A stretch of 64,000 nucleotides of DNA from Meyerozyma guilliermondii (Eukaryota): contig CP128816.1 of assembly GCA_051546255.1 (NCBI GenBank), forward strand, positions 806,001-870,000. Direction: 5' to 3'. The position numbers and the translations under genes were made by a program. The stretch's first letter is position 1; the number at the start of each line of letters is the position of its first letter. Below, piece by piece: positions 21,681 through 31,471 of the stretch. The notes beneath the pieces were generated by a model. It saw only the letters and a list, made by a program, of their open reading frames with translations. It made no database searches and was not told the origin of the DNA.

Positions 21681-22652
21681 ATGTCGTTTGAAAAAACAGA
21701 CTCGGAGCGTCCCGTCGTTTCCATCCCCTCGACCACGAGCGCCAACAATGCTGTCTACTATAATATTCTGCTCAAACTTCCTCTACGCTCGATGACGATT
21801 CCAAGAAGGTACTCCGAATTCTTCCGACTTGTTCAAGATTTATCCGATGACTTGGGTATAAATCCCAGCGATTTCCCGTACAAGATTCCTCCGAAGTCGT
21901 TCATGTTTTCGTCTTCAGCTAAAGTCGTGGCGGAAAGACGAGATCAACTCGCCACTTTTTTGAACCAGGCTGTCACTGATAAGGAGATTCAGAACAACCG
22001 AATATTCCTTGAATTTTTAAAACTTCCCGCCGATTTTGAGCTATCTTCCATCTTCAAAAGGGGCCTGAACGTAGTGTCGGACCTCAGTATTCCACCTAGT
22101 TTGGATGACCAGCAATGGCTGGAACTTTACCGTCGCTATAAGCAGCGAGCGCACGAGTTTGAAATAGCCTACAAAGAGAGCCAGACTTTGAAGGAAAAAA
22201 TTGCCATTCAAAAGGAGTCAAAGGATTTACAGAGGCACCTAGATGAGCTCCGTGCCACCATCAGCAAGCTCAAAATTTCTGCCAAAGATAAACTGAAAAA
22301 AGAGGCAGCGGTGTGTAATCTTAAGCTGCTGATTCTGCTGATAGGGGCATGGTCAGCCGATAGAAGAGAGCAAAACGGCGGGCACGGCTCGCTAGGCAAG
22401 GCTTCTGAGACCAACGACACATTGCCGTTGAACAACCAGGAACTTTTGCAGCAACAAATTCAGATCCACAAGAACCAAGATCAAGAATTGTACGAGCTTC
22501 GGAAACTGATTCAAAGACAACGTGAGTTGGGAGAGTTGATCAATACCGAGGTTGAAGAGCACAATGAGTTACTTGATGGTTTCGAACATGAAGTTGAAAA
22601 TGCTGCTGCAAAGGTCAAAAGTGCCCGTCTGCGGGCTCGCAAAATCTTATAG
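21681..22652 (+). CDS. VAM7: PX-domain Qc-SNARE (vacuolar morphogenesis protein Vam7)
   Basis: RRYSEF...FPYKIPPK...ERR (PX); ETNDTLPLNNQELLQQQ..QDQEL..L..IQRQRELG.LIN.EVEEHNELLD (SNARE); no TM anchor. Confidence 0.9.
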   Translation: MSFEKTDSERPVVSIPSTTSANNAVYYNILLKLPLRSMTIPRRYSEFFRLVQDLSDDLGINPSDFPYKIPPKSFMFSSSAKVVAERRDQLATFLNQAVTDKEIQNNRIFLEFLKLPADFELSSIFKRGLNVVSDLSIPPSLDDQQWLELYRRYKQRAHEFEIAYKESQTLKEKIAIQKESKDLQRHLDELRATISKLKISAKDKLKKEAAVCNLKLLILLIGAWSADRREQNGGHGSLGKASETNDTLPLNNQELLQQQIQIHKNQDQELYELRKLIQRQRELGELINTEVEEHNELLDGFEHEVENAAAKVKSARLRARKIL

Positions 22653-23693
22653 TGGAGTGTCCAAATTTACCGTGTGTCCTAGTTGCGCTTTTGCTTTGCT
22701 CGCAGCTTCAAGGCTAGATCCTACGCTCACAGCGTGAGTATCGTGATCAACGATACCAAGTTGAACCAACTTTTTGCACGTTGAAGGCCGATTTAGACAC
22801 CGTTTGCAATACTGTCCGTTGTCACTTTCCTCGATAAACCAGAACCCACCCACGTTCCCAAAGAGATGTGATACCCCATTTCGTCGTGGTGGATAGGCTC
22901 GTCCTTTATTTGTCAATAAAAGCACGCTGGGAAAGTATTGACGATAAAACCAATACGCACAAAAAATTCCTATGGCTGCTCCTGCTAACGTGTCTGATAA
23001 AAAGTGTCGATTATCGGCAATCCGTGAACTTGCAATTGTACTCGCTAGAATCATCGGCGCTACAACCAACGCTATCTTGATTGAAACACCACGATTGTCA
23101 AAAACTTGTAATTTGCCAGCGGAAAATAGACTCACCATTGTCATGGCTGTAAATGCTGTCGAGCTGTGACCACTGGGAAACGTCCGAAACCCTTCTCTTA
23201 GAATCCCATCGTCTGTACTCGTGCAATCTGCGATTGTTCCCATACCAAATTCTATTGATGGCTGGCACCGGTCCAAGAAATCTGGCCGAGGAAGGCCCAA
23301 AGTGTTTTTCAACACGCACACTATGAGTATCTGGGTCGCCATGCTCCCACACAAGGCAGTCAGCCCGGCAAAAGTGTCCCATAAAATTCTGAATATCGTC
23401 ACCCTGCGAAAATCCAAGCATGAAATTGCAAAAAATAAAATTGGTGGACAAACAATGGTTATGAATACCAATTGCCATATAGGGAATGTCTCGTTGGGTG
23501 TGTACGAGTATTGCAATCTCAAGTCCTGGACGGCATATTCGTGGGACGGCAGCGTTAGAACACCTAAAGTTATAGAAATGGTTGCAAAAAAAAGGTACAA
23601 GAACCAATCCAATCCACACGATGTTGCTGTGTACAACGAGATTGGTAGCTTTCCCAATGGCCGGTCGGCATATAGACCTTGCAAAGAAATCAT
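22647..23693 (-). CDS. PAP2-family lipid phosphate phosphatase (Dpp1/Lpp1-like)
   Basis: KNTLGLPRPDFLDRC, FPSGHSS, SRIADNRH catalytic motifs. Confidence 0.9.
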   Translation of the reverse strand: MISLQGLYADRPLGKLPISLYTATSCGLDWFLYLFFATISITLGVLTLPSHEYAVQDLRLQYSYTPNETFPIWQLVFITIVCPPILFFAISCLDFRRVTIFRILWDTFAGLTALCGSMATQILIVCVLKNTLGLPRPDFLDRCQPSIEFGMGTIADCTSTDDGILREGFRTFPSGHSSTAFTAMTMVSLFSAGKLQVFDNRGVSIKIALVVAPMILASTIASSRIADNRHFLSDTLAGAAIGIFCAYWFYRQYFPSVLLLTNKGRAYPPRRNGVSHLFGNVGGFWFIEESDNGQYCKRCLNRPSTCKKLVQLGIVDHDTHAVSVGSSLEAASKAKAQLGHTVNLDTPL

Positions 23694-23967
23694 TGGTCAC
23701 AATAGTCCTGGTTGCAATTCGGTACAAACACAAATTACAAGTTAGGCAATTCTGCATAAGGTTTCGTCTCACTTTTCGTCATTCTGCACAAATAGGGAAA
23801 CATGAAACTTTTGGCGAAAGCCCCCAGCAACCAAACCAACTGCTCTGGAGTATAAATTAGGACCTTAGCTAACCAGTAGACATGAATTTACGCAAGATAA
23901 CCACAAGGTTTTTGGTGGAGAATGGTCTTCATTTACACCCAAACACCCGGTGATAAACTACTAACAT

Positions 23968-24054
23968 GTATGTACAGCTATGATGATTCAAACTCGCCGC
24001 GTAGAGAAGTCATGATAATACAAATCCAACTGAGCCATTGACATACTAACGCAG
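23968..24054 (+). other. Spliceosomal intron (87 nt) in a non-coding host transcript
   Basis: Perfect yeast consensus GTATGT...TACTAAC.GCAG; no credible flanking ORF; TATAAAT at 23851-23857. Confidence 0.7.
23976..24036 (+). ncRNA. Candidate intronic box C/D snoRNA
   Basis: C box ATGATGA 23980-23986, D box CTGA 24030-24033, internal TGATAA (C'-like); enclosed by GTATGT 23968-23973, TACTAAC 24044-24050 and CAG 24052-24054. Confidence 0.65.
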
Positions 24055-24080
24055 AATTTTTTAATGGAGGTTCATATTAG

Positions 24081-24135
24081 TGTTGGTGTTTGTTGGTATG
24101 TGTTGGTGTTTGTTGGTATGTGTTGGTGTTTGGAT
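24081..24135. repeat. 10/20-bp tandem repeat (tgttggtgtt tgttggtatg)n
   Basis: Read directly. Confidence 0.85.
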
Positions 24136-24297
24136 GTTTTGGCATATAAAAGCTGAAAATTTTGTCCTTCTCATTACAACAAATGTATGTACTTTTTCAA
24201 GGATGAAAAATGTTCGCCTAAAATCGACAATCCATGAGATTACAAAAACAAACACCAAGATCTACTCTGAATGAAAAAGCAATACTAATACAGATGT

Positions 24298-25584
24298 TTA
24301 TTGATATAAATGTGGATAAAGCGTCCTGAGTTCGTCTCCCCAGATCCGGATTCCTTCCTCTATTTTTTCTGGTGACAACGAACTAATGCTCAATCTCACG
24401 CTGTTTTTCCAGAATGGCGGCTCGGAGCTGCACACTTCAAAGTTGTGGCCGGCCGGGATTATAACTCCTCTTTCTTTCATCTTGTCAAGCACCTTCTCTA
24501 GATCGATTTCTCCGGGGATCGAAAGCCAGAAAAAGTAGCCTCCATCGCCTCCACTTACTATTGTGGTTGATGGTAAGTACTTGGGTATCACTTCTAGTAA
24601 CCTCTTTGCGCGTTCTTTGTAGATCTCAATGAACTTCTTGATGATGGTATCAAGAGTGCCATTGTCGATGAGGCTTTTGACCACGAAAGAAGACAATTGA
24701 CCCGGGGTTCCTCCTGATTTGTTTGCTCCGGTAATTGCAAGTTGCTCTGCAAGCTTGCTAGTAGCGGTTTCTTGCCAGCCAAACCGAATTCCTGGCGCCA
24801 AAATCTTGGAAAACGTAGCGTTGGATACGGTATTTCCAAACGTTTTGGCTTTGGGTCGAGTCTTTATGTCCAAGTATACCATCCGAGGAATTCTCTCGCT
24901 GGCTTCGGTGTAGTCAAGTAGCTCGTACACATCGTCGGTGATAATTAGCATGTCGTATTTTCGAGCCAACTCCAACACCGCCATACGAGTCTTGGTCGTA
25001 TACGAGATTCCACCAGGATTTGAAAAAGTAGGCACCATATAGATTACATGGCGGTATAGCTTGCGGTCAGGGCGTCCCGCAGCGTCCTTAATGATGTTTA
25101 TCTCTTCATTTTCAGGGACTGGATCAGCTTGCGCAAGATGGTTTTCCAACGTCTTGATATCGATGTCGAATTCTTCATTCTGGGTCTCTCGAATTGGCAC
25201 AATTCTGCCTCCAAACCCAGCGTCCACAAACGAGCTGTTGATTAAAAAGTAAGTTGGAGTGACAATAAATGCAGATTGGGTAATCTCCACAGAAGTGGCA
25301 GAAGTAAGAATATTCGCAGCTCCATAAGAAGCACCGGACGTCAAGTTCATGTTCTGTGGACACGACAAATCAGTGTTGAATTCTCGATTATTCCAATCGC
25401 TGATGGTCTTGCGTACCTCGTAATTACCAGAATCAGTTCCATACTGCAAAGGTCCTCGATTTTTGGGATCATTTTCGTAGCCAAGAAAGTCGGTTTCAAG
25501 TAGAATTTTGCTATAGGCATCAGCAAGCTCCTTCCGGGGAAGTATGTCCGCACTGGGATGGCCCTTGAAAAAATTAATTGGCAT
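24298..25584 (-). CDS. PLP-dependent class I/II aminotransferase (YER152C-like, 2-aminoadipate transaminase family)
   Basis: INFFKGHPS, LQYG, PTYFL, VPTFSNPGG, DDVYELL, TFSKILAPGIRFGW (PLP Lys), GGYFFW. Confidence 0.9.
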   Translation of the reverse strand: MPINFFKGHPSADILPRKELADAYSKILLETDFLGYENDPKNRGPLQYGTDSGNYEVRKTISDWNNREFNTDLSCPQNMNLTSGASYGAANILTSATSVEITQSAFIVTPTYFLINSSFVDAGFGGRIVPIRETQNEEFDIDIKTLENHLAQADPVPENEEINIIKDAAGRPDRKLYRHVIYMVPTFSNPGGISYTTKTRMAVLELARKYDMLIITDDVYELLDYTEASERIPRMVYLDIKTRPKAKTFGNTVSNATFSKILAPGIRFGWQETATSKLAEQLAITGANKSGGTPGQLSSFVVKSLIDNGTLDTIIKKFIEIYKERAKRLLEVIPKYLPSTTIVSGGDGGYFFWLSIPGEIDLEKVLDKMKERGVIIPAGHNFEVCSSEPPFWKNSVRLSISSLSPEKIEEGIRIWGDELRTLYPHLYQ

Positions 25585-30814: not shown

Positions 30815-31471
30815 TCATATAGAGTATATCGAGAGGAGGAGATGACGAAGGTGAATCCTAAGTAGAAAAGTACTCAAATTCTTTACGAATTGGAACCTAT
30901 GGTAGATCTTAAATCAGTACTATATATGGAAAAGTTAGTAGCACTGCAGAAATTAGATATTAGTAGCTATTGGAGAAAAACGAAGGTTTCAAAAATAGAA
31001 TTTCGAGAGAAAGTCAAACTGATGTGAGTCAAAGAGAGTAAAAATTGAAATTAATATGGAAATCAAAATGAATCAGTCACCTTCATATAGTCAGAAGAAT
31101 TCCTATAAGTAAAGAGAACGTGAAGATTAGTCATTGTGACATGAAATCAAAATTAGTCAGCTAAACGAGGATCTCGTCTAACAAAGAACTTCAAAAACCA
31201 GTACCAGTAGTCAAAGATAATTGTAGAGAATTGAGCTTGTCGAGCTGTCACAAGAATCTTAGTCTGCCAAGCGAGCCAAGCCTCATGCACACGGGCTAAC
31301 TTTACGAGCGAGATCTTGAAGCTAAAGTCTAAGTCAAGATCAGGATTGTATTGAATTAGCACAGAGTTGATATGGGAGTAATGCAACAGTAACATTATGG
31401 TAGTTGTTGTCTCGTATCGATTTCGATACCTACAGTTTTTCGTCATATCTATATTAATCGTGCTAATTAAT

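What the first reader, a model, noticed from the sequence alone, without database searches (positions are those of the whole stretch)
23851..24070. Unannotated spliced non-coding host gene with an intronic C/D snoRNA and overlapping splice signals
Seen: TATAAAT at 23851; a first TACTAAC at 23959-23965 followed 2 nt later by a perfect 5' splice site GTATGT (23968); box C at 23980 and box D at 24030; a second TACTAAC at 24044 and CAG at 24052-24054. The nearest AG for the first branchpoint (CAG 23975-23977) lies inside the second intron, so the two introns overlap with no exon between them, or the first is a relic whose 5' splice site has decayed (I see no clear one). Known: CTG-clade yeasts carry snoRNA clusters in introns of non-coding hosts, with intron degeneration. 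Inference: a two-snoRNA cluster with mutually exclusive or ordered splicing, or a snapshot of intron loss.
Basis: partly seen in the sequence, partly recalled or inferred. Interest (0 to 1): 0.75.

Follow-up and report, generated by a model that had tools for sequence, protein, structure and literature searches.

The report
Yeast snoRNA host gene, two introns
A short non-coding gene in this Candida-relative yeast most likely carries two small ribosome-modifying guide RNAs, each in its own intron, which is an already published kind of arrangement, and the extra branch-site motif that suggested overlapping introns does not look like part of a working intron.

Summary
The 604-bp gap between a PAP2 gene and an aminotransferase gene holds, on the + strand, two compact introns. 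Each has GTATGT, a TACTAA[C/T] branch site and a CAG 4 nt after the branch A. That spacing is reported as typical for Clavispora lusitaniae (PMC2483917 passage).

- **Intron 1 (23968-24054)** holds a 60-nt box C/D RNA ("sno1") with perfect C and D boxes. It matches no Rfam family, has no significant rRNA target on foreign rDNA, and has no homologue in two syntenic relatives.
- **Intron 2 (24185-24293)** was not in the finding. It holds an 88-nt C/D snoRNA whose guide fits the published Candida family LSU-G1431/CD_71. Three metagenome yeasts carry orthologues, two of them at the same locus.

So the host-gene reading is supported.

The overlapping-intron reading is not supported:
- No 5' splice site and no C or D box lies upstream of the first TACTAAC.
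- Its distance to the next AG is 12 nt, not 4.
- Neither syntenic relative has such a motif next to its 5' splice site.

The motif is chance or a rearrangement scar. No RNA data could be used.

Verdict: a new member of a known kind, of modest interest.

The parts
23851..23857 (+). TATAAAT, a candidate TATA element of the host transcript (function inferred only)
   Evidence: Sequence. No transcript data could be obtained.
23959..23965 (+). Orphan TACTAAC in exon 1, 2 nt before the 5' splice site. Probably not a working branch site.
   Evidence: No upstream 5' splice site or C/D boxes. 12 nt to the next AG, against 4 in the real introns (PMC2483917). Absent beside the 5' splice site in L056 and L071.
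23968..24054 (+). Intron 1 (87 nt): GTATGT 23968-73, TACTAAC 24044-50, CAG 24052-54
   Evidence: Branch-A-to-AG spacing is TACTA[ACGC]AG = 4 nt, the same as in intron 2.
23976..24035 (+). sno1: box C/D RNA of about 60 nt. Box C AUGAUGA 23980-86, D' UAGA 24002-05, C' UGAUAA 24013-18, box D CUGA 24030-33. Candidate guides 23987-24001 and 24019-24029. Ends are inferred.
   Evidence: it matches only archaeal-type minimal C/D models (sR17, 21.3 bits, below the gathering score of 36). No Rfam family reaches its gathering score.
24055..24184 (+). Exon 2 (130 nt), or a spacer between two transcription units. Holds a 20-nt tandem repeat x2.7 (24080-24132) with two extra GTATGT (24096, 24116), TATAAAAG 24145-24152 and GAAAATTTT 24155-24163.
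24185..24293 (+). Intron 2 (109 nt): GTATGT 24185-90, TACTAAT 24283-89, CAG 24291-93
24192..24279 (+). sno2: 88-nt box C/D snoRNA of the LSU-G1431/CD_71 type. 8-bp terminal stem, box C AGGAUGA 24200-06, guide CACCAAGAUCU 24253-63, 3-nt spacer, box D CUGA 24267-70.
   Evidence: SNORD24, 21.6 bits, guide aligned. (11-bp match to LSU rDNA). (orthologues with stems of different sequence that still pair).
24294..24400 (+). Start of exon 3. Its 3' end is unknown, and it overlaps the 3' end of the convergent aminotransferase gene (24298-25584, minus strand).
   Evidence: The extent is inferred.

Best explanation
The gap between the PAP2 gene (22647-23693, minus strand) and the aminotransferase gene (24298-25584, minus strand) encodes a short non-coding RNA polymerase II transcript on the + strand. 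Its only likely job is to deliver two box C/D snoRNAs from two introns.

Mechanism (inferred from the published pathway for intronic snoRNAs, not shown here): after splicing, each lariat is debranched and trimmed by exonucleases down to the part protected by the C/D proteins.

- **sno2 (24192-24279)** pairs with large-subunit rRNA at AGAUCUUGGUG. It should direct 2'-O-methylation of the G that lies 3 nt 5' of the site I recall as the U24 site. This makes it the counterpart of the Candida snoRNA LSU-G1431.
- **sno1 (about 23976-24035)**, the RNA in the finding, is a lineage-specific minimal C/D RNA with intact boxes. Its target is not identified.
- **The TACTAAC at 23959**, 2 nt before the 5' splice site, is not the branch site of a working overlapping intron. 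It is either a chance match or a scar of the rearrangement that added the sno1 intron.

Whether the two introns share one transcript or belong to two tandem units (a second TATA-like element lies at 24145) is open.
For: **Intron signals.** Two GTATGT ... TACTAA[C/T]-N-CAG units of 87 and 109 nt lie 130 nt apart on one strand of an intergenic gap. Both have the same branch-A-to-AG count of 4. A passage of PMC2483917 gives 4-5 nt as the preferred distance in C. lusitaniae, which I recall as belonging to Metschnikowiaceae, the group of the nearest named relatives.

**Non-coding.** The longest ORF is 40-58 aa.

**sno2.**
- It shows an 11-bp run against TGCAGATCTTGGTGG as the top hit in 7 of 7 long rDNA loci, with the fifth nucleotide from box D opposite the G.
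- Only 1-14 of 500 shuffled guides do as well.
- The SNORD24 alignment shows the same guide displaced by 3 nt.
- Orthologues L056, L071 and L069 keep the guide, the 3-nt spacer and box D. Their terminal stems have different sequences but still pair: 8, 7, 5 and 6 bp in 4 of 4 sequences, window included.
- L056 has the same gene order as the window (PX, PAP2, host, aminotransferase, Rtt106). L071 has DUF2417, PX, host, aminotransferase.
- The S1 table and passages of PMC5033589 list LSU-G1431 in a 'non-genic intron', and snR24 separately in the intron of orf19.6906, which I recall as ASC1. A passage of PMC5824354 places the family (CD_71) in Saccharomycotina outside Saccharomycetaceae.

**sno1.** It has a perfect AUGAUGA 6 nt after the 5' splice site hexamer and a CUGA 10 nt before the branch site. 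C'/D'-like boxes sit at regular spacing.

**Against a working upstream intron.**
Against:
- sno1 has no homologue. A metagenome scan requiring both guide cores found 0 matches. L056 and L071 have only one snoRNA intron at the locus.
- sno1 reaches no Rfam family. The best eukaryotic match is SNORD29 at 14.7 bits, E = 1.
- The sno1 guides have no significant rRNA match on rDNA of other eukaryotes. Shuffled guides do as well in 31-305 of 500 trials for D' and 78-466 of 500 for D. So sno1 could be a decaying or non-functional copy.
- sno1 has no terminal stem of its own. The only pairing is GUAUGU with ACAUAC across the intron ends, and the fold is no more stable than shuffles (z = -0.06).
- A TACTAAC this close to an intron is unlikely by chance (about 0.003), so 'no function' is not proven.
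- Equating the target with C. albicans G1431 rests on an assumed 3-nt numbering offset. I could not see the C. albicans sequence, because Mitrovich et al. 2010 is not held.
Confidence: 0.7

Rival explanations
1. Relic or scar. The TACTAAC|AT|GTATGT junction is what remains of a head-to-tail duplication, or an insertion, of a snoRNA-intron module. sno1 is a diverged copy of the G1431 snoRNA, and a further upstream copy has decayed into today's exon 1.
For: - A branch site abutting a 5' splice site with no AG between them is what a tandem copy of [5' splice site ... branch site] would create (inference).
- TCGCC sits at the same offset (nt 8-12 after GAUGA) in sno1, sno2 and L071. CAUGA-A-UACAAA follows in both window RNAs.
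- sno1 is absent from both syntenic relatives, so it was gained or lost recently.
- Passages of PMC3596301 describe juxtaposed snoRNA introns and moved snoRNA introns flanked by short direct repeats.
- The chance probability of the motif is about 0.003.
Against: None of the similarity tests is significant:
- intron 1 against intron 2: 373 of 2000 box-preserving shuffles score as well;
- the G1431 family model scores sno1 at 7.9 bits, E = 0.19, below an unrelated coding-region hit;
- exon 1 against intron 1: 167 of 1000 shuffles; exon 1 against intron 2: 759 of 1000;
- that model finds nothing in exon 1 at E up to 10.
Confidence: 0.3
2. Functional overlap. The first TACTAAC serves an upstream intron that ends at CAG 23975-77, or is used after removal of intron 1. 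This would give ordered or mutually exclusive splicing like the nested and recursive splicing of the Candida snR57-55-61 cluster.
For: Nested, recursive and zero-exon snoRNA introns are documented in CTG-clade yeasts (PMC5033589 passages; PMC3596301 passages). The heptamer is a perfect consensus.
Against: - No usable 5' splice site lies in 23694-23958: all 14 GT hexamers have at least 2 mismatches, and only one keeps G5.
- No snoRNA boxes lie upstream.
- The spacing of 12 nt to the AG compares with 4 in both real introns.
- Using 23977 would delete the downstream 5' splice site, and no exon end is available to regenerate it (sequence).
- The motif is not conserved in L056 or L071.
Confidence: 0.07
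3. Two separate tandem host genes rather than one. sno1 has its own promoter (TATAAAT 23851), and sno2 keeps an older promoter inside what is here called exon 2 (TATAAAAG 24145-52 with GAAAATTTT 24155-63).
For: - In L056 and L071 the G1431 host is a single-intron unit with A/T-rich TATA-like sequence 55-66 nt before the 5' splice site.
- PMC5033589 lists LSU-G1431 without a cluster label or a neighbouring snoRNA in four Candida-group species.
- A TATA-like element lies between the two introns.
Against: [quoted passage not shown]
- GAAAATTTT is not enriched in the window: 4 matches against 2.8 expected.
- No terminator or poly(A) evidence could be obtained.
Confidence: 0.3
4. sno1 is not a snoRNA. 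The C and D motifs in intron 1 are fortuitous, and the intron is an ordinary small intron of a non-coding transcript.
For: No homologue, no Rfam family, no significant target and no own terminal stem.
Against: The seven-base box C and the CUGA sit at the positions, relative to the 5' splice site and branch site, that intronic C/D snoRNAs take in the neighbouring intron and in L071. C'/D'-like boxes with regular 15, 7 and 11-nt spacing give the archaeal-model match at E = 0.0018 on 94 nt. An otherwise purposeless 87-nt intron in a non-coding RNA of an intron-poor yeast would be odd (inference).
Confidence: 0.12

Closest known systems
Candida LSU-G1431 snoRNA (snoStrip family CD_71) in its non-coding host intron (Mitrovich et al. 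2010, seen only as cited in PMC5033589 and PMC5824354)
   Same: sno2 is a C/D snoRNA in a 'non-genic' intron. Its D guide is aimed 3 nt 5' of the site I recall as the U24 site. It is conserved in non-Saccharomycetaceae yeasts.
   Different: In the four Candida-group species of PMC5033589, and in L056 and L071, the host carries this snoRNA alone. Here a second snoRNA intron (sno1) precedes it.
U24 / snR24 / SNORD24 (Rfam RF00069)
   Same: It shares the guide core ACCAAGAUC against the same rRNA helix (alignment).
   Different: The score is 21.6 bits against a gathering score of 41. The guide is displaced by 3 nt from box D, so a different nucleotide is selected. In the Candida species of PMC5033589, snR24 sits in the intron of orf19.6906 (ASC1 by my recollection), not here.
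CTG-clade snoRNA clusters with nested, recursive or zero-exon introns (cluster II snR57-55-61, cluster III snR41-70-51; PMC5033589, PMC3596301)
   Same: A non-coding host, one snoRNA per small intron, and splice signals of neighbouring introns crowded together.
   Different: In those clusters every intron is complete (5' splice site, snoRNA, branch site, AG), and the overlap is 0-1 nt and regenerates a splice site. Here the upstream 'intron' has only a branch-like heptamer.
Archaeal-type minimal C/D sRNAs (Rfam sR17 RF01144, sR7 RF01310)
   Same: sno1 has the same compact 60-nt C - guide - D' - C' - guide - D layout.
   Different: The resemblance lies in box layout only and is below gathering (21.3 against 36 bits). 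sno1 is a eukaryotic intron product and not a member of these families.

Membership tests
Box C/D snoRNA (for sno1) | Box C (RUGAUGA) near the 5' end and box D (CUGA) near the 3' end | tested here: met
   AUGAUGA 23980-86 and CUGA 24030-33.
Box C/D snoRNA (for sno1) | Terminal stem, or external intronic pairing, that brings C and D together | tested here: inconclusive
   sno1 has only 2 bp of its own. GUAUGU (23968-73) can pair with ACAUAC (24041-46) in the minimum-free-energy fold, but z = -0.06 against shuffles.
Box C/D snoRNA (for sno1) | Guide of at least 10 nt complementary to rRNA or snRNA, with the target opposite the 5th nucleotide from D or D' | tested here: inconclusive
   The best runs are 9 bp (D', at the LSU 5' end, GCGGCGAGT, in 2 loci) and 8 bp (D). 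Shuffled guides do as well in 31-466 of 500 trials. The species' own rRNA and snRNAs were not available.
Box C/D snoRNA (for sno1) | Stable RNA bound by fibrillarin/Nop1, Nop56, Nop58 and Snu13 | not testable with these tools
   No expression data.
LSU-G1431 / CD_71 (for sno2) | D guide complementary to LSU rRNA that places the G 3 nt 5' of the U24 site opposite position 5 | tested here: met
   An 11-bp run at positions 4-14, top hit in 7 of 7 long rDNA loci. Only 1-14 of 500 shuffles do as well. The link to C. albicans numbering G1431 is inferred.
LSU-G1431 / CD_71 (for sno2) | Sequence homology to the C. albicans founding member | not tested
LSU-G1431 / CD_71 (for sno2) | Location in an intron of a non-coding host; present in non-Saccharomycetaceae budding yeasts | tested here: met
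   Syntenic orthologues in L056 and L071.
Rfam SNORD24 / U24 (for sno2) | Score at or above the family's gathering threshold | tested here: not met
   21.6 bits against 41. No match in the gathering scan.
Complex (juxtaposed, nested or recursive) snoRNA introns | [quoted passage not shown] | tested here: not met
   No 5' splice site or snoRNA upstream of 23959. The overlap would be 10 nt and would destroy the downstream 5' splice site.
CTG-clade non-coding snoRNA host gene | Spliced transcript without coding potential, one snoRNA per intron, consensus GTATGT / TACTAAC / YAG | tested here: met
   Sequence features are met. The transcript itself is not shown.

The most novel reading that the evidence does not exclude
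The locus is a snapshot of snoRNA birth and death inside a host gene. The G1431 intron module was copied head-to-tail, which left the branch-site|5'-splice-site junction (TACTAAC-AT-GTATGT) as a scar. One copy (sno1) kept perfect boxes but lost 8 nt of its guide and is now an orphan or has switched to a new target. An older copy decayed into exon 1.
Probability: 0.2. Interest if true: 0.55.

Novelty: new member of a known kind. Interest (0 to 1): 0.3.

Why it matters
It adds an unannotated snoRNA host locus to a poorly studied group of Candida-related yeasts. It also confirms that the LSU-G1431 guide and its genomic neighbourhood are conserved well beyond the Candida albicans group.

The only less ordinary points are these:
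- a lineage-specific second C/D RNA without a recognisable target;
- a stray consensus branch site beside a 5' splice site.

If closer genomes showed these to be the products of a local intron duplication, the locus would be a small but clean example of how snoRNA clusters grow and decay in non-coding hosts. It opens no long-standing question.

Tried and rejected
- **Expression data.** I used no read laying, so no junctions could be tested.
- **Earlier notes.** There are none for this genome or sequence. A word search gave only analogous cases from other genomes.
- **Rfam.** The window has 0 matches at gathering. Permissive scans gave only sub-threshold matches.
- **sno1 as an snR39/snR59-type A807 guide.** I suspected this from memory and dropped it. 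The 8-bp match UGGAUUUG lies about 134 nt before the GGGGCGAA block in the rDNA loci, which does not fit that site. It is also at chance level.
- **sno1 D' guide on the LSU 5' end.** The run is 8-9 bp and not significant.
- **sno1 homologues.** A scan of metagenome contigs for both guide cores gave 0 matches.
- **Paralogy of sno1 and sno2, and a decayed copy in exon 1.** Neither is significant.
- **Conservation of host exons between the window, L056 and L071.** None of 12 comparisons exceeded its shuffle mean by 3 sd. The resemblance of CTACTACAAAT|GTATGTAC in L071 to the window's exon 1 end is therefore anecdotal.
- **Other TACTAAC or TACTAAT sites in the window** (5818, 30940/30965, 33304). 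I inspected them as possible calibration introns. None gave a clear intron.
- **The sigma-70/terminator scan** is not meaningful for a yeast.
- **Papers not held.** Mitrovich 2010 and Mitrovich 2007 are not held, and the supplements of PMC5824354 are not readable. These may contain the C. albicans LSU-G1431 sequence and any family matching sno1.

Full report
**Where the window comes from.** The flanking proteins place the window in a CTG-clade budding yeast. The best named relatives of its Rtt106 are Candidozyma haemuli var. vulneris (45% identity), Candidozyma auris (43%) and Metschnikowia pulcherrima (41%), among 44 homologues. Everything below therefore rests on sequence, comparison and literature.

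**Observation.**
- TACTAAC occurs only 6 times in the window on both strands (3.9 expected). Two of the six are here.
- The region is the 604-bp gap between a PAP2-family gene (22647-23693, minus strand) and a class I/II aminotransferase gene (24298-25584, minus strand).

**What the finding missed.**
- A second intron follows 130 nt downstream: GTATGT 24185-90, TACTAAT 24283-89, CAG 24291-93. It holds an 88-nt C/D RNA, sno2 (24192-24279).
- sno2 has an 8-bp terminal stem (CUUUUUCA/UGAAAAAG), box C AGGAUGA, box D CUGA, and a guide CACCAAGAUCU separated from box D by 3 nt.
- Rfam aligns this guide to the SNORD24/U24 guide, but below threshold (21.6 against 41 bits).
- Both introns share an unusual feature: the CAG follows the branch A after 4 nt (TACTA[ACGC]AG and TACTA[ATAC]AG). 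A passage of Irimia and Roy 2008 (PMC2483917) reports preferred branch-to-AG distances of 4-5 nt for the few C. lusitaniae introns then known. C. lusitaniae belongs to Metschnikowiaceae by my recollection, so this spacing looks like the lineage norm, and these CAGs are the likely 3' splice sites.
- The spliced RNA has no ORF above 40 aa.

**Identity of sno2.**
- I fetched eukaryotic LSU rDNA pieces that contaminate viral and prokaryotic assemblies.
- In 7 of 7 long rDNA loci the sno2 guide's best site is TGCAGATCTTGGTGG. The run is 11 bp, and the fifth nucleotide from box D lies opposite the G of CAG*AUC. Only 1-14 of 500 shuffled guides do as well.
- That G lies 3 nt 5' of the C that U24 targets (U24 site recalled, not tested).
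- The S1 table and passages of Donovan et al. 2016 (PMC5033589) list a Candida snoRNA 'LSU-G1431' in a 'non-genic intron', distinct from snR24, which sits in the intron of orf19.6906 (ASC1 by my recollection).
- A passage of Canzler et al. 2018 (PMC5824354) says this family (CD_71) occurs in Saccharomycotina except Saccharomycetaceae.
- I infer that sno2 is its orthologue. I could not see the founding sequence.

**Relatives.**
- A metagenome scan for box C, guide, 3-nt spacer, box D and branch site returned 21 loci.
- I read 3 of them (L056, L071, L069) as yeast orthologues and 3 (L057, L065, L070) as related snoRNAs in GTAAGT-type introns. The other 15 I read as unrelated matches, several of them repeats of one sequence.
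- The four orthologous RNAs, window included, keep the guide and spacer. Their terminal stems have different sequences but still pair: 8, 7, 5 and 6 bp.
- L056 has the window's gene order: PX-domain gene, PAP2, host, aminotransferase, Rtt106. L071 has DUF2417, PX, host, aminotransferase.
- So this intergenic space is a conserved snoRNA host locus.
- In both relatives the host has a single snoRNA intron, as PMC5033589 lists for the Candida group.

**The RNA in the finding (sno1).**
- Intron 1 is 87 nt. sno1 (about 23976-24035) has perfect C and D boxes and internal UAGA and UGAUAA boxes at 15, 7 and 11-nt spacing. Because of this layout the only Rfam models it touches are archaeal minimal C/D RNAs (sR17, 21.3 bits, E = 0.0018 on 94 nt, below gathering).
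- It has no terminal stem of its own. The intron ends can pair (GUAUGU with ACAUAC), but the fold is not better than shuffles.
- Neither guide has a significant match on the foreign rDNA. The best are 9 bp on GCGGCGAGT near the LSU 5' end and 8 bp elsewhere, and 31-466 of 500 shuffles do as well.
- A metagenome scan requiring both guide cores found nothing. L056 and L071 lack it.
- sno1 is therefore a lineage-specific C/D RNA candidate whose target, and even whose activity, is unknown.
- It shares TCGCC at the same offset after box C with sno2 and L071, and shares CAUGA-A-UACAAA with sno2. Formal tests of paralogy fail, however (373 of 2000 shuffles; family model 7.9 bits, E = 0.19).

**The 'overlapping splice signals'.**
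- Upstream of the first TACTAAC there is no 5' splice site. All 14 GT hexamers between 23694 and 23958 differ from GTATGT at 2 or more positions, and only one keeps G5. There is also no C or D box.
- The first AG lies 12 nt after the branch A, by the same count that gives 4 for both real introns.
- Using that AG would remove the downstream 5' splice site, with nothing to regenerate it.
- Neither L056 nor L071 has a branch-like heptamer next to its 5' splice site.
- The host exons are not conserved between the three species at all.
- Nested and recursive splicing is real in CTG-clade clusters (PMC5033589 and PMC3596301 passages). There, however, both introns are complete. That defining feature is not met here.
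- The motif is thus either chance (about 0.003 for exon 1, post hoc) or a scar of the event that added intron 1. A faint alignment of exon 1 to intron 1 is not significant (167 of 1000 shuffles).

**Open points.**
- It is not known whether both introns lie in one transcript. A second TATA-like element (24145-52) and a GAAAATTTT motif sit in 'exon 2', which also carries a 20-nt tandem repeat that creates two extra GTATGT.
- The target of sno1 is unknown.
- The origin of the stray TACTAAC is unknown.
- RNA-seq, small-RNA detection, RiboMeth-seq and the genomes of closer relatives would settle all of these.

**Verdict.** The feature is real and was largely read correctly as a snoRNA host gene. 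It belongs to a published kind. The striking part of the interpretation, overlapping introns, is not supported.

Noticed in passing
window 24080-24132: A perfect 20-nt tandem repeat (GTGTTGGTGTTTGTTGGTAT x2.7) lies in the exon between the two snoRNA introns. Each unit junction creates a consensus GTATGT (24096, 24116). These are cryptic 5' splice sites that could pair with the intron 2 branch site.
   Followed up: partly
L071 2936-2974: The syntenic relative has a 19-nt tandem duplication (CATCATCTACTACAAATGT x2) that ends in the 5' splice site of its G1431 intron. This suggests that the exon/5'-splice-site junction is prone to small duplications.
   Followed up: no
L057 1186-1289, L065 1120-1212, L070 (minus strand) 1531-1636: These are C/D snoRNAs with the same guide core and the same 3-nt offset from box D, but in GTAAGT-type introns of other fungi. 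If those fungi are not Saccharomycotina, the family range stated in PMC5824354 would be too narrow.
   Followed up: no
window 24207-24227; L056 3006-3029; L071 3006-3025: The G1431 family keeps a second conserved element, UUCGCC, followed by UCGA after box C. It is complementary to the universally conserved LSU block GGGGCGAAAG about 525 nt upstream of the main target. Its distance to UCGA varies (4-6 nt), so it may be an accessory pairing rather than a second methylation guide.
   Followed up: partly
This means eukaryotic rDNA contamination is common in that collection.
   Followed up: no
window 22647-23693 versus L071: The PAP2-family gene beside the host locus is present in the window and in L056 but absent from the same interval in L071. 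The neighbourhood has therefore been rearranged at least once.
   Followed up: partly
window 30925-30971 (minus strand): Two branch-like heptamers lie in tandem (TACTAAT, 16 nt, CAG; then TACTAAC, 15 nt, TAG). No recognisable 5' splice site or ORF is nearby. Unexplained.
   Followed up: partly
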